Below are positions 11,719 through 62,309 of a stretch of DNA of 64,000 nt, piece by piece; position 1 is the stretch's first letter; every line of letters begins with the position of its first letter. The position numbers were made by a program, and so were the translations under genes. Below the pieces are notes generated by a model. That model ran no database searches, had not been told where the DNA came from, and worked only from the letters and a program-made list of their open reading frames with translations. Origin of the DNA: an uncultured Candidatus Saccharibacteria bacterium. Lineage in GTDB: Bacteria > Patescibacteriota > Minisyncoccia > Phycocordibacterales > CAIZLB01. Location of the stretch: NCBI GenBank assembly GCA_964450605.1, contig CAYVEK010000001.1:72430-136429 (forward strand), given 5' to 3'.

Positions 11719-12393
11719 ATGAGAATATTAATTATTGAAGATGATCAAGAATTAGCAAAAGCTCTTGTTGAATGTTTAACAAATGAAGGTATTGTTTCTG
11801 ATGTTTGTAATGATGGTGAAACAGGATCCTACGTTGCTCGTACAAATTCGTACGATGTAATTGTTATTGATAACATACTTCCTAAAAAAGGAGGTATGTC
11901 TGTATGTAGAGATTTGAGGAATTCAAATGTGAGAACTCCTATATTGATAATGTCTGTTCAATCAGAAGTTAATACAAAAGTTGAATTTCTAGAAGCTGGT
12001 GCGGATGATTTTATATCAAAACCTTTTTCTGTGCTTGAATTTATTGCCAGATTAAAAGCCTTAATAAGAAGACCTTACAATATTCAAGATTCAATAATGA
12101 CTATTGATGATTTAACAATAGATATATCAACTCAAACAGTTTATAAAAAAGGTAGGCAGGTATATATGACAAGAAAAGAGTTTATGATACTTGAATACAT
12201 GTCAAAGAAAAAAGGTAATGTAGTTTCTCGTAACGAAATAATGGATCATGTATGGGAAAAAGATTTTGACCCTTTTTCAAATAGTATAGAAACTCATATT
12301 AGAAATATAAGAAAAAAGATAGATTCAGGTAAAAAAAGAAAAATACAAACAGTTCCAGGTAGAGGATACCGTATTATTTCAAAGATAAGTTAA
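11719..12393 (+). CDS. OmpR/PhoB-family response regulator (receiver plus winged-helix DNA-binding domain)
   Basis: MRILIIEDD...DVIVIDNILP...ADDFISKPF receiver motifs and a C-terminal winged helix (TRKEFMILEYM...VPGRGYRI). Confidence 0.85.
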   Translation: MRILIIEDDQELAKALVECLTNEGIVSDVCNDGETGSYVARTNSYDVIVIDNILPKKGGMSVCRDLRNSNVRTPILIMSVQSEVNTKVEFLEAGADDFISKPFSVLEFIARLKALIRRPYNIQDSIMTIDDLTIDISTQTVYKKGRQVYMTRKEFMILEYMSKKKGNVVSRNEIMDHVWEKDFDPFSNSIETHIRNIRKKIDSGKKRKIQTVPGRGYRIISKIS

Positions 12394-12443: not shown

Positions 12444-13457
12444 ATGGCATTTATCGACGAATTAAAACTAAAAATCAAAGCTGGAAAGGGAGGAAATGGT
12501 GTAGTCCGATGGCTACATGAGTACGCCAAAGAATTCGGTGGACCTTGCGGAGGTGATGGAGGACGTGGAGGTAGTGTTTTTGTTCGTGGTATTGCTGATA
12601 CATTTTATTTACGAAAATACGCAAACGTAAAAGAGCTTACAGCTGAAGACGGACACTATGGTGAAGGTTTTAGTCGACAGGGTGCAAGTGGTGAAGAGCT
12701 TATTATCGATGTGCCAGTTGGAACTATCATCACTCGAGTTGAAGATATAAACATACATGATACTGAAACGATGATGAACCCAGTGATAGAGATCACAGAA
12801 GCTGGACAGATGGTTCGTATTTTGAAAGGTGGAAGTGGTGGATATGGAAATGAACACTTCAAGGGTCCATCAAATCAACGACCTGAAGAATGGACTCCAG
12901 GAAAACCAGGAGAAGAAGCTATCTTTACGATAGAGGTTCAGATGATTGCTGATGTTGGTCTTATTGGTCTTCCAAACGCAGGCAAGTCTTCTCTTCTAAA
13001 TGCTTTAACAAAAGCTGATGTAAAAGTTGGAAACTATCAGTTTACAACACTCGAGCCAAACTTGGGTTCCATGTTTGATATTATCTTGGCTGATATCCCA
13101 GGACTTATCGAAGGTGCTTCAGAAGGAAAGGGTTTGGGTCATAAGTTTTTAAGACACATACAGAGAACAAAAGTTCTTGCACATTGTGTGTCTCTCGAAC
13201 AACCTTTGGATGAGATGGTTGCGGTGTATAAAACAGTACGCAATGAGCTCGGAGAATATGATAAGTCACTCGCTGATAAAAAAGAAGTTATCATCTTAAC
13301 TAAGAGTGATGTTATTGATCCAAAAGAAGTTGCAGGAATACAGAAAAAGTTTTTAACAAAGATTAAGAAAAAAGCAGACGAGGTGTTTGTGGTATCTGTG
13401 TATGATATGGATGCGTTGAAAGGTTTGCGAGAGTGGTTGACAAACTTAGTTAAATAA
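12444..13457 (+). CDS. obg: GTPase Obg/CgtA
   Basis: N-terminal Obg fold glycine-rich repeats (KAGKGGNGVV...GGDGGRGGSV) followed by GTPase motifs GLPNAGKSS and DIPGLIEGAS. Confidence 0.9.
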   Translation: MAFIDELKLKIKAGKGGNGVVRWLHEYAKEFGGPCGGDGGRGGSVFVRGIADTFYLRKYANVKELTAEDGHYGEGFSRQGASGEELIIDVPVGTIITRVEDINIHDTETMMNPVIEITEAGQMVRILKGGSGGYGNEHFKGPSNQRPEEWTPGKPGEEAIFTIEVQMIADVGLIGLPNAGKSSLLNALTKADVKVGNYQFTTLEPNLGSMFDIILADIPGLIEGASEGKGLGHKFLRHIQRTKVLAHCVSLEQPLDEMVAVYKTVRNELGEYDKSLADKKEVIILTKSDVIDPKEVAGIQKKFLTKIKKKADEVFVVSVYDMDALKGLREWLTNLVK

Positions 13458-13534
13458 GTTGTTTTGAGGTGTGTTTTGTGGTATATAAAGGTCCTACTCG
13501 TCATGAAGGCGGGTGTTTAGAACTTTTGACTTAA

Positions 13535-14218
13535 ATGAAAATCGTTACGCTAAGTGGTTGGTTGGGTGGTTTTGGTGAGAATCCTCAGGATCCCACCTGG
13601 TCTTTGGAAGAGAGGGGTGTCCCTGTGTCGCACAAATTTGAAATTAGGCGTAGTAGGTATTTTGTTGAGGGTACCAAACTGCTGATAAATGACAGTGTTC
13701 GGATGGAGGGTGATTTCATTCCAGATGGTTATGTTTACAAACATACTGATCGTTGGAATGGTTTTGAGTTTCGTCCAGATACTGTTTCGCGCAGGGATCC
13801 AGGTTTTATTTACGTGTACATCAGGACACAGGATTTTGTTCCAGGTGTAGTCGCAGAAGCTTTCTACAAAAGACCTGTGTATGAAGATACACCTTACAAA
13901 CTGGGTATAAGACAAATCTGGCAGTTGAATTCTGGTGAAAGTTTGATCATCAGATGGTGCGGTTATTACTGGAAAGTATCAAACTTCAGTCGAAACATTT
14001 TGATTGAGGAATTCTTCCGCGATGGCAAGAGGAGGGTCCTTGTTGGTAATCTGGAGCGTGCTCCGATTGAGATTCAAGAGATCTATGCCATGCAAGAACT
14101 TCGTTTTCTCGAGACTCGTTATGCGGCCGTTTGTAGGCGGCTTGGCAGAAGAGGTGCTCCCACATCTCGTTACTGCAGGATCGGTTGTGGACAGTACGGT
14201 GACCCACTCCCACCCTGA
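13535..14218 (+). CDS. Hypothetical protein (227 aa) in a GC-rich islet. It is ORFan-like and rich in Arg, Tyr and Trp.
   Basis: Long ORF in a segment of about 50% GC against about 36% around it. Amino-acid composition is unlike the Lys-rich neighbours. Followed by its own terminator. Confidence 0.45.
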   Translation: MKIVTLSGWLGGFGENPQDPTWSLEERGVPVSHKFEIRRSRYFVEGTKLLINDSVRMEGDFIPDGYVYKHTDRWNGFEFRPDTVSRRDPGFIYVYIRTQDFVPGVVAEAFYKRPVYEDTPYKLGIRQIWQLNSGESLIIRWCGYYWKVSNFSRNILIEEFFRDGKRRVLVGNLERAPIEIQEIYAMQELRFLETRYAAVCRRLGRRGAPTSRYCRIGCGQYGDPLPP

Positions 14219-14232
14219 ACACTCAACGCGTG

Positions 14233-14279
14233 CCCGACCGTGGACCTCGTCCGCGGTTGGGCGCTTTTTTTATTTTACA
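14233..14279 (+). terminator. Rho-independent terminator
   Basis: gcccgacc ... ggttgggc forms an 8-bp stem (one G-U pair) followed by gcttttttt. Confidence 0.6.
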
Positions 14280-14329
14280 TACTATGCTAACGTTTCTTAT
14301 GGCGCCGAACGAACGACGCGCGAACTTTT

Positions 14330-15154
14330 ATGATAACAACGAACATAATCACGGCACTCCTGCACGGCTGTGGTACTGTTCGCCATAAGCCGGGCCTTGT
14401 GCTCGATTTTAAAAAACAGTCCATGATTGGATTGTCACGTTGTCGAGTAGACCCACCTATGGGTGAACTGGCAATAATGAACAGCGAAGGCGTCCTCTCT
14501 AGTCGCAGAAACTGTGACCGGGCAGGATATGTACTGTTCACGGGTAATCCAAAGCCTGTGATTACGGTGCAGATGTTTACAGGCCGAGGAGACCTGTTGC
14601 GAGCACAGCCTTTGAGGCGTAAATCTTGGCGATGCTGTCACGAATTTCTGGAACTCTGGAGAGTTCCGGACGGACATAGACTTTTTCTTGTCGTCCGTAA
14701 AAACGGAAAGGATGATGAGTGGAATGTTCGTGTTCAAGATGGGACTATCACCATGGTCTCCAGAGAGCAACAGATCATCGAAGGTCATGCAGGCAACGAG
14801 AAGGGTGCGAAAGCTGAGCAGATGTTTATCAAGGCTTGGCAACATGAGCGTGACTATCATGCTCACAGAGCGACGCCTTACGAAGATCTGCATGAGGAAA
14901 CCGATGCCTGGATCTGTTCACTCAGAGAACCGTGGAGAAAGTATCGGGTACAGATTAAGTCTGGAAAAGGCCATGATCCTTACCCCTTCTATCGACGAGG
15001 CCTTGTGCTGGTTGAGATAGATGTCCACAAAGACACTCCTGCCACTATTCGCTTCAAAACACATTATGCGATAAGGGAGTTCGACCGAGTGAATCCAAAA
15101 TTTTTTGGCGGAAGGCTTCGGCGGATATTTCGACCTCACCGCAACCGCCACTAA
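14330..15154 (+). CDS. Hypothetical protein (up to 274 aa) in the same GC-rich islet. Start is uncertain; Mets at 14330, about 14423 and about 14465 are possible.
   Basis: Long ORF, about 50% GC, His/Arg/Trp-rich. It is in the same reading frame as the upstream ORF but separated by a stop and a terminator. Ends immediately before a perfect terminator. Confidence 0.4.
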   Translation: MITTNIITALLHGCGTVRHKPGLVLDFKKQSMIGLSRCRVDPPMGELAIMNSEGVLSSRRNCDRAGYVLFTGNPKPVITVQMFTGRGDLLRAQPLRRKSWRCCHEFLELWRVPDGHRLFLVVRKNGKDDEWNVRVQDGTITMVSREQQIIEGHAGNEKGAKAEQMFIKAWQHERDYHAHRATPYEDLHEETDAWICSLREPWRKYRVQIKSGKGHDPYPFYRRGLVLVEIDVHKDTPATIRFKTHYAIREFDRVNPKFFGGRLRRIFRPHRNRH

Positions 15155-15157
15155 CAG

Positions 15158-15189
15158 GCGCAGCTGTCTCCAGACAGCTGCGCTTTTTC
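15158..15189 (+). terminator. Rho-independent terminator
   Basis: gcgcagctgtc-tcca-gacagctgcgc is a perfect 11-bp stem followed by tttttc. Confidence 0.8.
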
Positions 15190-15218
15190 TTATTCCTAAA
15201 ATATGCTACACATATACT

Positions 15219-16676
15219 ATGAGTTACACACCTGTCATCGGTCTTGAGATACATGCCGAATTGCATACAAAAACAAAGATGTTTTGTGGATGTAAAAACG
15301 ATCCTTTTGATCGTCGACCAAATGTAAACGTATGTCCTATTTGTCTTGCACATCCAGGAACTCTGCCTGTATTAAATAAGTCTGCTATTTCTCATGTTCT
15401 TAAAGTTGGACTTGCACTTGATGCAGAGATGGCGGATTTTACAGAGTGGGATAGAAAAAACTATTTTTATCCAGACATTCCAAAAGGGTATCAGATTAGT
15501 CAGTACGCGTATCCGCTTGTACAAAAAGGAAAACTATTTGTAAAAAATGCAAAAGGTGAAGATGTGCCTGTTGGTATAACACGTATTCATCTTGAAGAAG
15601 ATACGGCGAGTTCTATACACGATCAAGGTGAGTACAGTCTTGTAAATTATAACCGAGCAGGTGTTCCGTTGATGGAGCTTGTAACAGAACCTGATATACG
15701 AGACGGAAAGACAGCCGGAAACTTCGGTCGTGAATTACAATTACTACTACAAACACTTGGAGTATCTGAAGCAAACATGGAAATGGGTCAGATGCGTGTT
15801 GAAGTAAACATTTCTATACACAAAGAAGGAGAACCTTGGGGAACAAAAGTTGAAATCAAAAACCTCAACTCATTTCGTTCAGCTGAACGGGCTATCGAGT
15901 ATGAGATAACACGACAAGCGGCACTTCTAGATGCTGGAGAAAAAGTAATACAAGAAACTCGTGGTTTTGATGAAAGTAGTGGAAAAACATTTTCACAACG
16001 TGTTAAAGAAAATGCAAATGATTATCGATATTTTCCAGATCCCGATCTTCCAAAACTATATATATCCAAAGAGTTCAACCTGGAAGAATTAAGAAAAACA
16101 TTGCCAGAACTTCCGTGGCAGAAACGAGCACGATATATGTCTCTTGGAGTTAAAGCTGAAGATGCTGAGATGTTTACCAATGATTCATTTTTCGGAGTAT
16201 ATGTCGATGAGATTTTGTCTCGAGACAATCTTTCAACAAAAGCAAAAACTTTGGCGATAAACTATATATCGAGTGATATTGCCGGTATTTTGAAAAAAGA
16301 GACAGAGAGACTTTCAACTCTTGACAGTTATATTGACAAGCGACATTTGGCGGAGATTGTATCCATGATAGAAAAAGATGAGCTCTCTTCACGAGGTGCA
16401 AAAGATCTTATTGCATTTCTTTGGAAAAATGAAGAAGTTGTGGCGCGAACTGTTCGCGAGATTGCTGATGAAAAAGGCTTGATACAAAAAAATGATCCAG
16501 AGGCCGTTAAAGCAATCGTACAAAAAGTTATCGATGCAAATCCAGAACAGGTTGCTGGATTCAAGGCCGGTAAGGAAGCTCTACTTCAATATCTTGTAGG
16601 TCAGGTCATGAAAGAAGGAAAAGGTGCAGTAAACCCTGCACTTGCACAGCAGATGTTGCGGGAGATGATAGGTTGA
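15219..16676 (+). CDS. gatB: Asp-tRNA(Asn)/Glu-tRNA(Gln) amidotransferase subunit B
   Basis: MSYTPVIGLEIHAEL...MFCGC...PNVNVCPICLAHPGTLP is a canonical GatB N-terminus with a C-terminal YqeY-like domain. Start set at the Met 114 nt inside the ORF. The stop codon is TGA. Confidence 0.9.
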   Translation: MSYTPVIGLEIHAELHTKTKMFCGCKNDPFDRRPNVNVCPICLAHPGTLPVLNKSAISHVLKVGLALDAEMADFTEWDRKNYFYPDIPKGYQISQYAYPLVQKGKLFVKNAKGEDVPVGITRIHLEEDTASSIHDQGEYSLVNYNRAGVPLMELVTEPDIRDGKTAGNFGRELQLLLQTLGVSEANMEMGQMRVEVNISIHKEGEPWGTKVEIKNLNSFRSAERAIEYEITRQAALLDAGEKVIQETRGFDESSGKTFSQRVKENANDYRYFPDPDLPKLYISKEFNLEELRKTLPELPWQKRARYMSLGVKAEDAEMFTNDSFFGVYVDEILSRDNLSTKAKTLAINYISSDIAGILKKETERLSTLDSYIDKRHLAEIVSMIEKDELSSRGAKDLIAFLWKNEEVVARTVREIADEKGLIQKNDPEAVKAIVQKVIDANPEQVAGFKAGKEALLQYLVGQVMKEGKGAVNPALAQQMLREMIG

Positions 16677-16807: not shown

Positions 16808-17200
16808 TTATGTTACATTGTCTCGTTTTCCAGTTTTCCACGCAGGGATTATTGATATAAATTTGTATGTATTATTAATATCTTTACCAACAATTACTTT
16901 ATATTTTTTATTTTCAATAATCGCAATAAAACCAAAATATTCCAGATCCCTTTTCTCGTATTCTTGGAGCGTTCCTGACTTTGAAAGGATTGAGTTTATG
17001 TGTGTTAGTGATCTAAATCTTTCTATTGTGTCATAATGCTTTCGTTTACCTGTATTCTTTTTCCATATTAAATGTTTAAAGCCACTCATTGTAAATTTTA
17101 CCGTAGTATTTAAATATGGACAGAATATTTCAGATAGAGACATGTACAAGGATCTGTATCTTTTTATAATATCTTTAAAATTAGTGACTTGTTCTGACAT
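16808..17200 (-). CDS. Hypothetical 130-aa protein, possibly a RelE/BECR-fold toxin-like nuclease (speculative)
   Basis: Solitary minus-strand ORF in an otherwise plus-strand stretch. Basic, with a C-terminal beta-rich segment (YFGFIAIIENKKYKVIVGKD) reminiscent of small RNase toxins. No partner gene is evident. Confidence 0.4.
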   Translation of the reverse strand: MSEQVTNFKDIIKRYRSLYMSLSEIFCPYLNTTVKFTMSGFKHLIWKKNTGKRKHYDTIERFRSLTHINSILSKSGTLQEYEKRDLEYFGFIAIIENKKYKVIVGKDINNTYKFISIIPAWKTGKRDNVT

Positions 17201-17293
17201 TGATACAAATCTATCAAATTGAGGTTAGTTAAATTTTAAAGAAAAAATAAAGTTTACCCGAAGAAAGTTGTATTTCATGCTATACTGTTAAAC

Positions 17294-25292: not shown

Positions 25293-26000
25293 TTACTTCT
25301 TTTTTTCTACCGGCGTACGGGTCGGTAAGAAGGAGCCGAATGAGGCATTGATCCCAATGACTTCAAATGTCTTGGCGAGACTGAACAAGGCTTCATACCG
25401 TGCCCGCAGTCTTCTGCGGGCAGGTTCATCTTGTTCGGTTTCGGCGGTTCCGAGGTCAGTTCCGGCTACCCGGAGGGTATTTTGAATAGTGTCTTTAAAA
25501 CACTGTACCCAACCTCCGTTGGCAGGTACAAGGTTTAAAAACTTGTGATCTCCATACTTGAGTGTCGTCTCGAGACTGTGGAGAAAATCAGAAGCGATGA
25601 TCAATTTTTTGGTTTTTGACCACTGCTCCGCAACCTCCATTATCGTCTTGCCGGGACGGATTCTTTGAGCCTCGCGGAATCCGACCACAATTCGGACGAT
25701 AAAAAATATCGCTCCGATTAATGCGGCCCCTGCAATCCAGGGCGTGCGAGTCCCCCAGAAGATGTACGTCAAGTACATCATTCCGCAGTAGATTAGGAAA
25801 TTCCAGAGAATTCCGCGGATCTTTTTCTGGTATTTCTGGGTTTTCTGCAGGCACTCCTCCGCAGGGGTGCCGAAGCGGCGGAGCTCCACTTTTTCCTGGT
25901 TTTTACTCCAGGATACAGTGAAGATAATGCTGAGGAACTCCCAGATCATCTGGGAGGCAACTTCGTTGTTATAGTGAGGTTGTTTTTCGGGCGTAGCCAT
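25293..26000 (-). CDS. Hypothetical membrane protein (about 235 aa from the ATG) in a GC-rich islet
   Basis: About 50% GC, two TM helices, no recognisable domain. The ORF-track start at 26024 is a TTG, so the ATG at 26000 (MATPEKQ) is preferred. Confidence 0.5.
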   Translation of the reverse strand: MATPEKQPHYNNEVASQMIWEFLSIIFTVSWSKNQEKVELRRFGTPAEECLQKTQKYQKKIRGILWNFLIYCGMMYLTYIFWGTRTPWIAGAALIGAIFFIVRIVVGFREAQRIRPGKTIMEVAEQWSKTKKLIIASDFLHSLETTLKYGDHKFLNLVPANGGWVQCFKDTIQNTLRVAGTDLGTAETEQDEPARRRLRARYEALFSLAKTFEVIGINASFGSFLPTRTPVEKKK

Positions 26001-26149
26001 GGTGGCAGTTGGTTGTGTTGTCAAGGTGTGCTTATCAGTTACGAAAAGGGGACATTTCCCACTCAGCTATGCTTCAATCGCATAGATCTAAGCTTTCATT
26101 TCGCGGAGTACAGAAGCACGCTGTATGCCATATATATTATATCATATAT

Positions 26150-55059: not shown

Positions 55060-55075
55060 GTTGTGTATTGTAACA

Positions 55076-55114
55076 AAAATTTCCCCACCCACGGCATGGT
55101 GCCGGGGTGGGGTG
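55076..55114 (-). terminator. Hairpin-repeat terminator, copy 1: ccccaccc-acggcatggtgccg-gggtgggg, with a T-run on the minus strand
   Basis: Perfect 8-bp outer stem plus 5-bp inner stem. A near-identical copy lies at 55487-55525. Confidence 0.7.
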
Positions 55115-55118
55115 AGGA

Positions 55119-55433
55119 TCATGACTCACTGCTCTTATCCCAAGGTTTTGGGAAGCAGAAGTTGAATGTAAGTTCCTCGGGCCCAGTTCTGAAGCCGAGT
55201 TGGAAGAAGTCGAACGATCCGTCGCGACCTCTTCGCATAAACTTCAATGCATCTGTTGCGTCGACCAGGAACAGGCCCGGATGGTCATTTTCGGCCGGTA
55301 ACAAGATGCCTGAGGCTCCTTGCAACTTGAATGGTGTTGTTGTGATCCAGGATGTCACCTGGGTTATGATGGAGGTGTTTGGAGGAACGGTGATGGTCCT
55401 CCATTCGACTGCGGGTGATGATGGCGTGCTCAT
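55119..55433 (-). CDS. Small GC-rich ORFan (105 aa from the ATG) with its own consensus promoter and terminator
   Basis: Minus-strand TTGACA (55470-55475), a 17-nt spacer, TATAAA (55447-55452), then ATG at 55433 with a leader of about 6 nt. Copy-1 hairpin terminator lies just downstream. About 50% GC. Confidence 0.35.
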   Translation of the reverse strand: MSTPSSPAVEWRTITVPPNTSIITQVTSWITTTPFKLQGASGILLPAENDHPGLFLVDATDALKFMRRGRDGSFDFFQLGFRTGPEELTFNFCFPKPWDKSSES

Positions 55434-55439
55434 AAAGTG

Positions 55440-55476
55440 CAAAGTATTTATACTATTTAAGATTCTTAGTGTCAAT
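55440..55476 (-). promoter_or_regulatory. Consensus sigma-70-type promoter (TTGACA-17-TATAAA) for the 105-aa ORF
   Basis: Read directly from the minus strand: ttgacactaagaatcttaaatagtataaa. Confidence 0.55.
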
Positions 55477-55486
55477 TATCATAAAA

Positions 55487-55525
55487 AAAATTTCCCCACC
55501 CACGGCGTGGTGCCGGGGTGGGGTG
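55487..55525 (-). terminator. Hairpin-repeat terminator, copy 2 (ccccaccc-acggcgtggtgccg-gggtgggg)
   Basis: Differs from copy 1 by a single nucleotide (A to G) in the loop. The 8-nt A-run 55483-55490 gives the T-run on the minus strand. Confidence 0.7.
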
Positions 55526-55539
55526 TGAGAGAGAGAGGA

Positions 55540-55941
55540 TCAGGGTGTTCGGAAGAGTAAGTGGCCGGGGCGGGTCACCTTAAATCCAAACAAATAATCC
55601 TGAATCGCTCGAGGACTATCGATGACGCTGAAACGCCATTTCTTGCCCGTGGTGTCCCTTGCGGATATAACGTACTGATGATGTACGTTTTCCAGGGTTT
55701 TCGGGGTCTGGTCGAGGATTTCTCCTTCGACCGTGTACTCCCCAATAGGGAGCTCATGAACCCCAACGATGAACGAGGGTTCGATTTCTTCCCTGACAGC
55801 TACCTTTGCAGGTGCTGTAGGGGCGTTGTGGAATGACGGCTCTTCAGGGTGTTCTGTTATTCCCCAAATAAGCCAAATCATAAATCCTGTTGCCGCGACA
55901 AGTAGGGTGAGTATCACGGCCGGTTTTTTGATAAAGTGCAT
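55540..55941 (-). CDS. Membrane-anchored GC-rich ORFan (about 133 aa from an ATG positioned for leaderless translation)
   Basis: Minus-strand TTGACA (55972-55977), 17-nt spacer, TATGGT (55949-55954), with ATG at 55941 seven nt after the -10. One TM helix. Terminated by copy-2 hairpin. Confidence 0.4.
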   Translation of the reverse strand: MHFIKKPAVILTLLVAATGFMIWLIWGITEHPEEPSFHNAPTAPAKVAVREEIEPSFIVGVHELPIGEYTVEGEILDQTPKTLENVHHQYVISARDTTGKKWRFSVIDSPRAIQDYLFGFKVTRPGHLLFRTP

Positions 55942-55980
55942 AAAAACAACCATACACTTATATTTTGGATATGTCAAGCT

Positions 55981-61917: not shown

Positions 61918-62244
61918 ATGAAAACTACGCTCCTTCTCCTGGCTGCAACGTGCAGCATCCTCTCTTCCTGCTCTCACCTCAGTGACCGGGGGAAACCCCT
62001 CACCCAGGTCGAAAGCTCCCGGCTTTTCGCCGGAGACCTCAGCCCGGCTGAGCGGCGTATCTTCTTCTGTGAGCGTGAGCTCACGGGGGCCGAGCGTGAA
62101 AAGCTCAATCAAGGTCCGCCCATCTACCAGCATACCGACCACGGGTCTATCATGGTCGGGGGGAGTCGGATCAACCTCCACAGCATGGAAGAGGTCAAGG
62201 CCGGCTGGGCCCGCGCCACGGCACCCAGCGAGCTCCGACCTTAG
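61918..62244 (+). CDS. Small lipoprotein (108 aa) encoded in a 58%-GC islet
   Basis: MKTTLLLLAATCSILSSC is a lipobox (L-S-S-C). Consensus promoter upstream and perfect terminator downstream. GC content far above the genome background. Confidence 0.5.
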   Translation: MKTTLLLLAATCSILSSCSHLSDRGKPLTQVESSRLFAGDLSPAERRIFFCERELTGAEREKLNQGPPIYQHTDHGSIMVGGSRINLHSMEEVKAGWARATAPSELRP

Positions 62245-62268
62245 GGTCCAGAGCCTTCCAAAACTCAT

Positions 62269-62309
62269 CGCCACATTTCCTTCGGGAGATGTGGCGGTTT
62301 TTCTTTTTC
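62269..62309 (+). terminator. Rho-independent terminator
   Basis: cgccacat-ttccttcgggag-atgtggcg followed by gtttttcttttt. Confidence 0.8.

What the first reader, a model, noticed from the sequence alone, without database searches (positions are those of the whole stretch)
13480..15190. GC-rich two-gene ORFan islet inserted between obg and gatB
The 1.7 kb between two universally conserved housekeeping genes is about 50% GC, against about 36% on either side. It encodes two ORFs of 227 aa and up to 274 aa whose composition is rich in Arg, His, Trp and Tyr, unlike the Lys/Ile/Asn-rich neighbouring proteome. Each ORF is followed by its own strong rho-independent terminator (14233-14279 and 15158-15189). 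Neither protein shows any motif I can recognise. The two ORFs share a reading frame but are separated by TGA plus a terminator, so they are two units, not one gene with read-through. This looks like a laterally acquired cargo cassette, for example a toxin/immunity pair, a phage moron or a symbiosis factor.
Basis: partly seen in the sequence, partly recalled or inferred. Interest (0 to 1): 0.7.

Follow-up and report, generated by a model that had tools for sequence, protein, structure and literature searches.

The report
Hypervariable orphan gene pair, obg–gatB locus
Two real but uncharacterised genes sit at a fixed spot between two housekeeping genes in a lineage of tiny candidate-phyla bacteria. 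They differ almost completely between otherwise near-identical strains, and one probably encodes a DNA-cutting enzyme, so this looks like an old molecular arms-race locus and not a freshly imported cassette.

Summary
Window 13480-15190 is the most GC-rich 1.7 kb of the window (47.7% against 38.2±2.7%). It holds two real protein genes, ORF1 (13535-14218) and ORF2 (14330-15154), each with its own strong terminator. Neither has a significant match in Pfam, NCBIfam, PHROGs, PADLOC, Rfam, PDB, phages or plasmids.

The interpretation needs changing. The host is a Paceibacteria (CPR) bacterium, a class in which obg and gatB normally abut. The pair was gained long ago: every close relative recovered carries the same gene families at this spot.

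What is strain-specific is the allele. Where Obg and GatB are 90-99% identical, ORF1 is 23-54% and ORF2 34-89% identical. Identity breaks are sharp, a ~105-nt terminator-promoter joint is almost invariant, ORF2 is mosaic, and ORF1 and ORF2 alleles assort independently.

ORF1, the N-terminal half of ORF2 and a third gene seen in relatives are distant paralogs. ORF2's C-terminal ~110 aa defines a small family with invariant E...ED...TD...QxK. This is probably a restriction-endonuclease-like nuclease, but only sub-threshold matches support that.

Best reading: an old, recombination-shuffled conflict locus, not a recent cargo cassette, toxin-immunity operon or phage moron.

The parts
12444..13457 (+). 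obg (337 aa), the conserved left anchor of the locus.
   Evidence: Pfam GTP1_OBG 1e-40 and MMR_HSR1 7e-25. Its 3' end is 85-100% identical in nucleotides to related contigs right up to the islet.
13458..13534 (+). Conserved ORF1 upstream region. It holds a -10-like TGTGGTATATAA at 13477-13488 and a leader.
   Evidence: 83-98% nucleotide identity to L002, L005, L088 and L090, while ORF1 just downstream drops to 32-45%. The promoter reading is by eye; the sigma-70 scan did not list it.
13535..14218 (+). ORF1, 227 aa, basic (pI 9.1), with no TM segment or signal peptide. It has a beta-rich body, a long helix (about aa 178-205) and a conserved tail SRYxR..G.G..GDPLPP. It is the hypervariable cassette.
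   Evidence: Excess of position-3 substitutions. At least six allele classes, 20-54% identical, between near-identical flanks. dN window-L002 is 0.80 against dS 0.115 in the adjacent obg. The AF2 model has pLDDT 52.7, reaching 70-80 only for aa 125-215. pI and hydropathy.
14230..14274 (+). Intrinsic terminator of ORF1 (16-bp stem followed by a T-run).
   Evidence: The stem is kept through different sequences in L090 and L101 (by eye). It is invariant in L001-L006 and L088.
14257..14329 (+). ORF2 promoter-like site and leader: TTGGGC (14257-14262), 17 nt, TACTAT (14280-14285). The leader carries a small hairpin (about 14302-14321, loop CGAACGAACGA).
   Evidence: Together with the terminator this ~105-nt joint is 93-98% identical to L002, L005, L006 and L088 and 77% to L090, even where both flanking ORFs are only about 40% identical. 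The hairpin has 6 pairs, 2 of them compensatory in L091 only. The promoter reading is by eye.
14330..14764 (+). ORF2 N-terminal domain (aa 1-145), beta-rich and a distant paralog of ORF1. It includes a mosaic patch at codons 61-105 (14510-14644).
   Evidence: hhalign of the ORF1 profile against the ORF2 N-domain scores 24.9, P 0.0045, over 140 colinear columns. Column-shuffled controls give 12.4±2.3, with 0 of 150 reaching the observed score. dN/dS is 0.27-0.38. Window-L002 dS is 0 in codons 1-45 but 1.0-1.6 in codons 61-105.
14765..15103 (+). ORF2 C-terminal domain (aa 146-258), a putative PD-(D/E)xK-type nuclease core. Invariant residues are G159, E163 (14816-14818), A169, W170, E185, D186, T191, D192 (14903-14905), Q208 (14951-14953), K210 (14957-14959) and T244.
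   Evidence: The exhaustive HMMER search found 15 stand-alone proteins of about 120-190 aa that match only this domain. Invariant columns come from the 23-sequence alignment. Sub-threshold Pfam hits are NERD E=0.033 and HSDR_N_2 E=0.069. hhalign places E/D/(Q/E)xK in register with EcoKI HsdR D298/E312/K314 (4 of 100 shuffles score as high) and with Mrr D203/Q217/K219 (not significant).
15104..15154 (+). ORF2 basic C-terminal tail (FFGGRLRRIFRPHRNRH) and stop codon.
   Evidence: The tail is conserved among the alpha alleles.
15156..15190 (+). Intrinsic terminator of ORF2 (13-bp stem followed by a T-run).
   Evidence: The hairpin is kept with different stem sequences in L006, L088 and L090.
15191..16676 (+). 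gatB promoter-like region (TATGCT at about 15203-15208) and gatB (15219-16676, 485 aa). This is the conserved right anchor.
   Evidence: Pfam GatB_N 3e-110. 97-98% nucleotide identity to L005, L006, L088 and L090 from 15199 onward.

Best explanation
SHOWN. The stretch is an old accessory locus, fixed in the chromosome, of one lineage of Paceibacteria (Patescibacteria/CPR). It was gained between obg and gatB, which abut in most of the class. It encodes two independently transcribed, basic, cytoplasmic proteins. The alleles are deeply diverged lineages exchanged among close relatives by homologous recombination. The recombination is anchored in three conserved stretches: the obg 3' end with the ORF1 promoter, the ~105-nt terminator-promoter joint between the ORFs, and the ORF2 terminator with the gatB 5' end. 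As a result, ORF1 and ORF2 alleles assort independently and ORF2 itself is mosaic.

SUPPORTED. ORF1, the N-terminal ~145 aa of ORF2, and a third gene present in some relatives are distant paralogs that share a beta-rich domain.

INFERRED. ORF2's C-terminal ~110 aa is a PD-(D/E)xK (restriction-endonuclease-like) nuclease core with an E...D...QxK active site of the Mrr type.

INFERRED, least secure. The locus is a conflict module of the defence or self/non-self type. The beta-rich domain would be the target-recognition part, kept diverse by diversifying or negative frequency-dependent selection. ORF2 would cut nucleic acid. ORF1 would be a non-catalytic paralogous partner or regulator.

SPECULATION. 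The persistently raised GC3 may be a by-product of frequent recombination (GC-biased conversion) and not a mark of a foreign donor.
For: Coding and constraint. Substitutions are in excess at codon position 3. dN/dS is 0.2-0.4 among close ORF2 alleles, against 0.03-0.10 for the flanking genes.

Synteny. L001-L007, L088, L090, L091, L092 and L101 all carry the families at the same place. obg-gatB adjacency with a short gap is the norm in 80 Paceibacteria loci.

Hypervariability beyond neutral divergence.
- Window vs L002: obg is 96.6% identical in nucleotides (dS 0.115) but ORF1 is 29-31% identical in protein (dN 0.80).
- L005 vs L088: the Obg C-terminus is 99% identical, ORF1 23% and ORF2 36%.
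- Window vs L088: GatB is 96% and VanY 94% identical, but ORF2 is 37%.

Recombination. Identity breaks are sharp at about 13519, 14179-14239 and 15199. An island of 93-98% identity lies at 14239-14298. Within ORF2, dS ranges from 0 to 1.6. Window and L002 share an ORF2 allele (89%) but not an ORF1 allele (29%). L006 and L088 share an ORF1 allele (83%) but not an ORF2 allele (34%).

Paralogy. hhalign gives P 0.0045 (ORF1 vs ORF2 N-domain) and 0.0004 (ORF1 vs ORF3). In both cases 0 of 150 column-shuffled controls reach the observed score.

Nuclease.
- E163, D192, Q208 and K210 are invariant across 23 sequences that are 24-40% identical outside the alpha group. Hydrophobic strand-like stretches (read by eye from the alignment) fit an alpha-beta-beta-beta-alpha-beta layout.
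- The two sub-threshold Pfam hits with a nuclease connection, NERD and HSDR_N_2, both belong to the PD-(D/E)XK superfamily (PMC3424549).
- The catalytic motifs align in register with EcoKI HsdR and with Mrr. The E. coli Mrr sequence itself shows D...QxK.

Other. pI is 9.1 and 9.9, with no TM segment or signal peptide.

Against: No PADLOC hit, no methyltransferase, and no neighbouring defence gene were found.

The allele survey rests on about a dozen short metagenomic contigs.

The conflict function is inferred only from the evolutionary pattern. An interaction between ORF1 and ORF2 is untested. L008 carries an ORF3-like gene with no ORF2 and L101 carries ORF2 with no full ORF1, so the parts are not obligately paired.
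Confidence: 0.45

Rival explanations
1. Toxin-antitoxin or toxin-immunity pair. ORF2 would be a nuclease toxin, and ORF1 (with ORF3 in relatives) the cognate or orphan immunity protein.
For: A putative nuclease lies next to a small, highly variable partner. A third paralog in L088 resembles an orphan-immunity array. Both genes evolve fast.
Against: The genes are separate transcription units with a conserved strong terminator and a promoter-like site between them. ORF1 and ORF2 alleles assort independently instead of co-varying. L101 keeps ORF2 with only a 53-aa mini-ORF upstream. L008 has an ORF3-like gene with no ORF2. There are no TA, immunity or PADLOC matches and no secretion or delivery domain.
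Confidence: 0.15
2. Host-interaction (episymbiosis) factors. The two proteins would be effectors or specificity determinants used by this CPR bacterium on its host cell, diversifying with host range.
For: The genes are lineage-restricted, show extreme allelic diversity, and occur in a phylum known for epibiotic lifestyles (lifestyle from general knowledge).
Against: There is no signal peptide, TM segment or lipobox. Both proteins are basic and hydrophilic. The conserved C-terminal domain also occurs as a stand-alone small cytoplasmic-looking protein among housekeeping genes of other contigs. An invariant E/D/QxK pattern points to catalysis on nucleic acid.
Confidence: 0.12
3. Dispensable orphan genes under weak constraint. 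The divergence would reflect relaxed selection plus recombination at a permissive intergenic hot spot, with no conflict function.
For: Many other Paceibacteria carry unrelated inserts in the same obg-gatB gap, so the site tolerates insertions. ORF1 is lost in L101. dN/dS is higher than in the neighbouring genes.
Against: The frames stay open and motifs stay invariant across alleles only 23-40% identical. dN/dS of 0.1-0.4 still indicates purifying selection. Promoter and terminator elements are tightly conserved. ORF1 dN is about seven times the neighbouring dS, which in-situ neutral drift cannot produce.
Confidence: 0.13
4. Recently acquired foreign cargo (mobile-element cassette or phage moron).
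For: GC and GC3 are raised and amino-acid usage is atypical. The genes are orphans.
Against: The families sit at the same locus in every close relative recovered and in relatives with 80% identical Obg/GatB. No integrase, tRNA or flanking repeats were found. There is no match in phages, plasmids or IMG/VR. Raised GC3 is shared by all alleles.
Confidence: 0.04
5. Not protein-coding: a GC-rich structured RNA whose open frames are accidental.
For: GC-rich islands in AT-rich genomes are often RNA genes (general knowledge).
Against: No Rfam family matches at gathering score, and only chance-level hits appear at E<=10. Substitutions follow codon periodicity, and the ORFs are preserved across saturated divergence.
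Confidence: 0.01

Closest known systems
Mrr-type (Type IV-like) restriction endonucleases, Pfam Mrr_cat PF04471
   Same: Both have a separate N-terminal recognition domain followed by a C-terminal core with alpha-helix E, strand D and strand QxK. E. coli Mrr reads GIDGVI...VYVQAKR; ORF2 reads TDAWI...YRVQIKS, with similar D-to-Q spacing (14 against 16 residues). Both are stand-alone, with no methyltransferase.
   Different: There is no significant sequence or profile match. The N-terminal domain is beta-rich and unrelated to anything recognisable. ORF2 is accompanied by non-catalytic paralogs of its N-domain. It shows extreme allelic diversity at a fixed locus.
NERD (PF08378) and HSDR_N_2 (PF13588), both PD-(D/E)XK families
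   Same: These are the only nuclease-related families to appear in Pfam scans. The match of P0019 to NERD is colinear over nearly the full domain (aa 14-109 against profile positions 2-93 of 111). The domain consensus matches HSDR_N_2 positions 9-67. Both are listed as PD-(D/E)XK families in PMC3424549.
   Different: E-values are 0.033 and 0.069 and bit scores 15.1 and 13.7, below the curated cut-offs of 22.1 and 25. The motif is QxK, not ExK.
Hypervariable allelic loci between conserved core genes (for example restriction-specificity or 'immigration control' type regions, and defence hot spots)
   Same: Flanks are conserved, identity breaks are sharp, deep allele lineages are swapped by homologous recombination, and genes are mosaic.
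   Different: All alleles belong to the same two or three orphan families, instead of different systems occupying one hot spot. The locus is tiny (1.7 kb). A conserved internal terminator-promoter joint lets the two genes be swapped separately. The comparison with these systems rests on general knowledge and was not tested.
Polymorphic nuclease toxin / immunity cassettes with orphan immunity genes
   Same: A nuclease-like gene lies next to small, fast-evolving paralogous genes whose number varies (one to three genes in the locus).
   Different: There is no secretion or delivery domain. The small gene lies upstream and is separately terminated. Alleles assort independently.

Membership tests
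PD-(D/E)XK nuclease superfamily (Mrr_cat / NERD / HSDR_N-like) | Conserved catalytic signature: an acidic residue in helix 1, D at the start of strand 2, and (D/E/Q)xK in strand 3. | tested here: met
   E163, D192, Q208 and K210 are invariant in 23 sequences. They align in register with HsdR D298/E312/K314 and Mrr D203/Q217/K219.
PD-(D/E)XK nuclease superfamily (Mrr_cat / NERD / HSDR_N-like) | Statistically significant sequence or profile match to a member family. | tested here: not met
   The best hits are NERD E=0.033 and HSDR_N_2 E=0.069, both below the curated cut-offs. The PDB profile search found nothing at E<=10. hhalign against HsdR gives an empirical P of about 0.04; against Mrr it is not significant.
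PD-(D/E)XK nuclease superfamily (Mrr_cat / NERD / HSDR_N-like) | An alpha-beta-beta-beta-alpha-beta core fold. | tested here: inconclusive
PD-(D/E)XK nuclease superfamily (Mrr_cat / NERD / HSDR_N-like) | Metal-dependent phosphodiesterase activity. | not testable with these tools
   This needs biochemistry.
Toxin-antitoxin / toxin-immunity module | Two genes co-transcribed as one operon. | tested here: not met
   A strong terminator (14230-14274) and a conserved promoter-like site lie between the ORFs. Both are conserved in all relatives.
Toxin-antitoxin / toxin-immunity module | Cognate partners co-vary. | tested here: not met
   Window and L002: ORF2 89%, ORF1 29%. L006 and L088: ORF1 83%, ORF2 34%.
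Toxin-antitoxin / toxin-immunity module | Match to a known toxin, antitoxin or immunity family. | tested here: not met
   No Pfam or PADLOC hit for either ORF. Among the 23 aligned family members there is only one chance-level Imm59 hit, at E=0.18.
Mobile-element cargo / phage moron / genomic island | Mobility genes, tRNA or att-type flanking repeats. | tested here: not met
   There is no tRNA in the 64 kb. The neighbours are ProRS, a response regulator, Obg, GatB, VanY, GAPDH and RmuC. No repeat of the islet or its edges occurs in the window.
Mobile-element cargo / phage moron / genomic island | Patchy presence among close relatives. | tested here: not met
   The locus is occupied in every close relative recovered; only the allele differs. 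It is absent only in distant relatives such as L009.
Mobile-element cargo / phage moron / genomic island | Similarity to phage or plasmid sequences. | tested here: not met
   tblastn against phages (both ORFs) and plasmids (ORF2) found no match. The IMG/VR scan with the ORF2 family found none; the scan with the ORF1 alignment could not be run.
Mobile-element cargo / phage moron / genomic island | Atypical composition. | tested here: met
   This is the highest-GC 1.7 kb of the window. GC3 is 42-48% against 25-28% in the flanking genes. The same feature is shared by all alleles in relatives.
Known anti-phage defence systems (PADLOC-DB) | A profile match to a component of a described system. | tested here: not met
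   No family matches at E<=1.
Diversity-generating retroelement target | A template repeat matching the variable region, with a reverse transcriptase nearby. | tested here: not met
   No repeat of any part of 13400-15300 longer than 23 nt occurs elsewhere in the window. Divergence spans whole genes, not an A-biased patch of about 100 nt. The window was not searched specifically for a reverse transcriptase.
Structured non-coding RNA | A covariance-model match, or substitutions without codon periodicity. | tested here: not met
   Rfam gives nothing at gathering score and only chance-level hits at E<=10. Codon periodicity is clear.

The most novel reading that the evidence does not exclude
A previously undescribed, CPR-specific nucleic-acid conflict system. 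It would consist of a new beta-rich 'variable recognition' domain family, present both free (ORF1, ORF3) and fused (ORF2) to a new small branch of the PD-(D/E)xK nucleases. It is kept at one chromosomal address and maintained as deep allelic lineages, which are reshuffled gene by gene through a dedicated conserved terminator-promoter joint. Functionally this would be an innate-immunity or self/non-self locus under balancing selection in bacteria that mostly lack CRISPR.
Probability: 0.3. Interest if true: 0.7.

Novelty: new variant of a known kind. Interest (0 to 1): 0.5.

Why it matters
Patescibacteria are a large share of bacterial diversity, and most of their lineage-specific genes are unannotated. 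This locus gives a compact, clearly bounded example of extreme allelic diversity: protein identity of 23-40% between genomes whose flanking housekeeping proteins are 90-99% identical. It also has a visible recombination architecture.

It defines three orphan families, one of which is a testable candidate nuclease with four invariant putative catalytic residues. If the conflict reading is right, it adds a new small defence or recognition module to a phylum thought to rely mainly on restriction systems. It would also provide a natural marker for strain tracking and for measuring recombination in uncultured CPR populations.

It is also a caution. Atypical GC in a core-gene gap does not have to mean recent horizontal acquisition.

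Tried and rejected
Family and RNA libraries.
- Pfam, PHROGs, NCBIfam and PADLOC on both ORFs gave nothing usable.
- Rfam, at gathering score over the whole window and at E<=10 over the islet, gave nothing credible.
- Pfam, PHROG and NCBIfam scans of all 23 family members gave only scattered hits at E of 0.02 or weaker.

Structure.
- AlphaFold2 with shallow alignments gave pLDDT 52.7 (ORF1) and 42.7 (ORF2).
- The afdb50 library was unavailable.
- PDB sequence and profile searches gave nothing for the domain. ORF1's helix gave only a coiled-coil-type hit to ClpC (E=0.05), and ORF2 gave one chance-level hit.

Collection scans.
- The genome contigs and metagenome-contig scans with the ORF2 alignment found nothing.
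- No phage or plasmid tblastn match was found.

Comparisons that failed or stayed weak.
- The first hhalign of ORF1 against ORF2 with small alignments was not significant. It became significant only with more alleles and was then checked against shuffles.
- hhalign of the domain against E. coli Mrr was not significant (17 of 100 shuffles score as high).
- Local HMM searches found no further family member in the window or in 80 other Paceibacteria loci.

Literature. Searches found nothing on such a locus in Patescibacteria.

Rejected ideas. A conserved uORF in the ORF2 leader was rejected because an indel breaks its frame in relatives. A conserved zinc site in the ORF2 N-domain was rejected because the Cys and His residues are not kept in distant alleles.
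Full report
OBSERVATION. Window 13480-15190 is 47.7% GC. The 1.7 kb to its left is 36.0% and the 1.7 kb to its right is 38.1%. It is the most GC-rich of all 1711-nt windows in the 64 kb (mean 38.2%, sd 2.7). The 50% level is reached only from about 13950 to 15150. ORF1 (13535-14218, 227 aa) is 45.5% GC with GC3 41.7%. ORF2 (14330-15154, 274 aa) is 49.1% GC with GC3 47.6%. By comparison obg has GC3 28.1% and gatB 25.3%. Both proteins are rich in R/H/W/Y/C (z = 3.1 and 3.3 against 63 other ORFs) and use Arg rather than Lys. Each ORF is followed by a strong terminator-like hairpin, at 14230-14264 and 15156-15185, each followed by a T-run. The ORFs share a frame and are separated by TGA. No Pfam, NCBIfam or PADLOC family matches either protein at E<=1, and PHROGs gives only one family of unknown function at E=0.33. 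No Rfam family or tRNA lies there.

ARE THEY GENES? Yes. Related contigs exist, and substitutions between them concentrate at codon position 3. ORF2 window-L005 gives 46/25/83 differences at positions 1/2/3, and ORF1 window-L001 gives 65/65/116. Nei-Gojobori dN/dS is 0.2-0.4 among close ORF2 alleles. The frames stay open in alleles that are only 23-40% identical. Both proteins are basic (pI 9.1 and 9.9) and hydrophilic, and neither has a TM segment or signal peptide.

HOST AND LOCUS HISTORY. GatB relatives name the host as a Patescibacteria (CPR) bacterium of the Paceibacteria/Parcubacteria group. The best GTDB representatives are 75%, 71% and 68% identical. In the 80 loci fetched, obg lies directly upstream of gatB in most, usually with a gap under 100 nt; the gap is 69 nt in L009, whose Obg is 71% identical. 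So the ancestral state is adjacency and the islet is an insertion, but an old one.

Every close relative recovered has the locus occupied by the same families:
- L001-L006 are short contigs that carry parts of obg 3' end - ORF1 - ORF2 - gatB 5' end.
- L007 is the same genome as the window.
- L088 has Obg 94%, GatB 96% and VanY 94% identical to the window.
- L090 has Obg 93% and L101 has Obg 94%.
- L091 and L092 are more distant (L091: Obg 81%, GatB 80%).

Wherever the flanks are on the contig, the order is RR-obg-ORF1-ORF2-gatB-vanY. L088 has a third gene (184 aa) after ORF2. L101 has only a 53-aa mini-ORF in place of ORF1; it ends ...KSRYNRWS, which recalls the ORF1 tail. The next relatives out carry one positional gene each: L008 (Obg 72%) has a 191-aa ORF like the L088 third gene, and L010 (Obg 67%) has a 234-aa ORF of unclear relation. 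Raised GC3 relative to the flanks is seen in all of these alleles, by varying amounts. Many more distant Paceibacteria carry unrelated inserts in the same gap.

HYPERVARIABILITY AND RECOMBINATION. The striking feature is divergence out of all proportion to the flanks.
- Window vs L002: the obg 3' end is 96.6% identical in nucleotides (dS 0.115), but ORF1 is 29-31% identical in protein (dN 0.80).
- L005 vs L088: the Obg C-terminus is 99% identical, ORF1 23% and ORF2 36%.
- Window vs L088: flank dS is 0.57-0.74 with dN 0.02-0.04, but ORF2 dN is 0.69 with saturated dS.

An ORF1 dN seven times the neighbouring dS cannot arise by divergence in place. The alleles must be old lineages brought in by recombination. 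A 60-nt identity profile shows the mosaic directly. Against L002, identity is at least 95% up to about 13519, then 32-45% across ORF1, then 98-100% again from 14239. Against L088 and L090 the whole islet is 32-57% identical, except for an island at 14239-14298 (95% and 77%), and identity returns to 97-98% at 15199. Inside ORF2, window vs L002 has dS = 0 in codons 1-45 and 226-270 but dS of 1.0-1.6 in codons 61-105.

ORF1 and ORF2 alleles assort independently. Window and L002 share ORF2 (89%) but not ORF1 (29%). L006 and L088 share ORF1 (83%) but not ORF2 (34%). At least six ORF1 classes and five ORF2 classes were seen in about a dozen contigs.

THE CONSERVED JOINT. The ~105 nt between the ORFs (14230-14329) is almost invariant in L001-L006 and L088, and largely so in L090 and L101. 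It contains four elements:
- the ORF1 terminator;
- a promoter-like TTGGGC-17-TACTAT, whose -35 lies in the 3' arm of the terminator (read by eye; the sigma-70 scan did not list it);
- a leader with a small hairpin, which has two compensatory pairs in the one divergent sequence, L091;
- the ORF2 start.

The region upstream of ORF1 (TGTGGTATATAA plus leader) and the ORF2 terminator with the gatB promoter region are conserved in the same way. These three stretches are the likely anchors for homologous exchange. They also show that the two genes are expressed as insulated units.

WHAT THE PROTEINS ARE. Word-indexed searches found only allelic relatives. The exhaustive HMMER search with the ORF2 alignment found 20 proteins at E<=1e-3. 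Five are full-length: P0005, an alpha allele already found, and P0009-P0012, of which P0010, P0011, P0012 and P0009 were traced to L090, L088, L091/L092 and L101. The other 15 are proteins of about 120-190 aa that match only ORF2 residues ~145-255. The three short proteins whose contexts were examined (P0013, P0015, P0016) are stand-alone genes among housekeeping genes on unrelated contigs, next to RmuC, GyrA, MreBC and PBP2. None is named by any source.

The 23-sequence alignment has these invariant residues: G159, E163, A169, W170, E185, D186, T191, D192, Q208, K210 and T244. They fall in the pattern G..AE..F..AW - (V)R.AT - ED....TDA(V/W)I - R(I/V)Q(I/V)K - G(I/V)VL - IR.(K/N)T..AI. That is the layout of a PD-(D/E)xK core: an acidic residue in helix 1, D at strand 2 and (D/E/Q)xK at strand 3.

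Support for this reading is consistent but weak.
- The only nuclease-related Pfam hits are NERD (P0019, E=0.033, nearly the whole domain) and HSDR_N_2 (domain consensus, E=0.069).
- Both families, and Mrr_cat, are PD-(D/E)XK members according to PMC3424549.
- hhalign puts the three motifs in register with EcoKI HsdR (FADYV...VVEAK). The reported P is 0.07, and 4 of 100 shuffles score as high.
- hhalign also puts them in register with E. coli Mrr (GIDGVI...VYVQAKR), but not significantly.
- PDB profile searches are empty. The AF2 model is unreliable in that region.

I put the nuclease fold at about 60%.

PARALOGY. All three gene types share an N-terminal strand (MKIVT.. / M.TTNIIT.. / MYFYTLT..) and a core motif. 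In ORF1 it reads QIWQLNSGESLIIRWCGYYWKVSNFSRNILIE; in ORF2 it reads ELWRVPDGHRLFLVVRK..DEWNVRVQDGTITMV. With seven ORF1 alleles and eight ORF2 sequences, hhalign gives P = 0.0045 for ORF1 vs the ORF2 N-domain over 140 colinear columns. It gives P = 0.0004 for ORF1 vs the third gene over 160 columns. Column-shuffled controls never reach the observed scores: 24.9 against 12.4±2.3, and 32.0 against 12.6±2.1, with 0 of 150 in each case. ORF2 is therefore an ORF1-like beta-rich domain fused to the putative nuclease domain. ORF1 has the same domain followed by a long helix and a conserved SRYxR tail. Divergence ranks ORF1 above the ORF2 N-domain (dN/dS 0.27-0.38), which in turn ranks above the ORF2 C-domain (0.11-0.24 in most pairs).

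MECHANISM. Shown: a fixed, old locus whose genes are real, under purifying selection within allele classes, and replaced gene by gene through homologous recombination at conserved anchors. Inferred: ORF2 is a nuclease whose N-terminal domain confers target recognition, and ORF1 (with ORF3) are non-catalytic paralogs that act with it or on it. Deep allele lineages, mosaicism and faster change in the recognition part are the signature of diversifying or negative frequency-dependent selection, as at defence or self/non-self loci. I therefore commit to a conflict-type nuclease module as the most likely function. My confidence is about 0.45 for the whole statement; it is high for the descriptive part and low for the biological role. 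The persistently raised GC3 cannot be an un-ameliorated recent import, because the locus is old. GC-biased conversion at a recombination hot spot, or exchange with GC-richer relatives, are untested explanations.

RIVALS.
- A toxin-immunity or TA pair is disfavoured by the insulated transcription units, the independent assortment, and loci with only one partner.
- A host-interaction effector role is disfavoured by the lack of any export signal and by the catalytic-looking invariant residues.
- Weakly constrained dispensable orphans are disfavoured by preserved frames and motifs and by dN far above the neutral divergence of the neighbours.
- Recent foreign cargo or a phage moron is largely refuted by synteny and by the absence of mobility features and of phage or plasmid similarity.
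- A non-coding RNA is refuted by codon periodicity.

NOVELTY AND SCORE. The families are absent from Pfam, NCBIfam, PHROGs and PADLOC. Literature searches found no description of such a locus in Patescibacteria. The kind of thing is familiar: a hypervariable, recombination-shuffled locus between core genes, with a restriction-endonuclease-like protein. The components are new, and so is the compact architecture with a conserved internal joint and free plus fused copies of one variable domain. I rate it a new variant of a known kind, with interest 0.5.

Noticed in passing
window 16818-17253 (ORF 16811-17200, - strand): A clean AT-rich (about 28% GC) insertion of about 436 nt lies right after the gatB terminator. 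It is absent from the close relative L088, and L091 has only a 27-nt gatB-vanY gap. It carries a 130-aa ORF on the minus strand with a weak Pfam LPD3 hit (E=0.0013). This is a second variable spot next to the islet.
   Followed up: partly
window 61918-62245 (+), hairpin about 62270-62298: A 108-aa ORF with about 62% GC in a 38% GC genome. It has a lipoprotein-like N-terminus (MKTTLLLLAATCSILSSC) and is followed by a hairpin plus T-run. There is no Pfam or Rfam match. It looks like another GC-rich orphan and possibly a real foreign acquisition.
   Followed up: partly
window 25296-26024 (-) and 55063-55977: Two further GC-rich patches. One is a 243-aa ORF with GC3 58% and only a weak DsbD_2 hit. 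The other is a stretch of about 50% GC with overlapping 165-aa and 145-aa ORFs on opposite strands, with no Pfam or Rfam match.
   Followed up: no
whole window 1-64000: ARAGORN finds no tRNA or tmRNA, and no Rfam family reaches gathering score, anywhere in the 64 kb.
   Followed up: no
L088 7787-8341; L008 4336-4911: A third family (184 and 191 aa), distantly paralogous to ORF1. It sits after ORF2 in L088 and is the only gene in the obg-gatB gap of L008, where composition is close to the host's.
   Followed up: partly
L101 3808-3969: In one close relative (Obg 94%), ORF1 is replaced by a 53-aa basic mini-ORF ending ...KSRYNRWS. The ORF1 promoter, the terminator-promoter joint and an ORF2 homolog are all retained. 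This is either a deletion remnant or a minimal form that keeps the SRYxR tail.
   Followed up: partly
P0013-P0027 (short domain-only homologs; loci L093-L099): Many of the ~150-aa stand-alone homologs share an N-terminal peptide, (R/K)(R/K)KYNLPLKGPTGL(S/T)xEE. Several end in basic tails with a (W/F)Y..(K/R)GK(K/R) motif. The function is unknown.
   Followed up: no
L013-L081, obg-gatB gaps: In many more distant Paceibacteria the same obg-gatB gap holds unrelated inserts of 0.3-2.3 kb, on either strand: membrane proteins, a 470-aa coiled-coil-like protein and a DHH-like protein. The junction therefore seems to be a general insertion-tolerant site in the class.
   Followed up: no
window 11719-12393: The OmpR-type response regulator upstream of obg is the most AT-rich gene nearby (29% GC, GC3 15%). 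It is conserved in synteny with no adjacent histidine kinase. It diverges faster than obg (80-88% against 93-94% protein identity to L088, L090 and L101).
   Followed up: no
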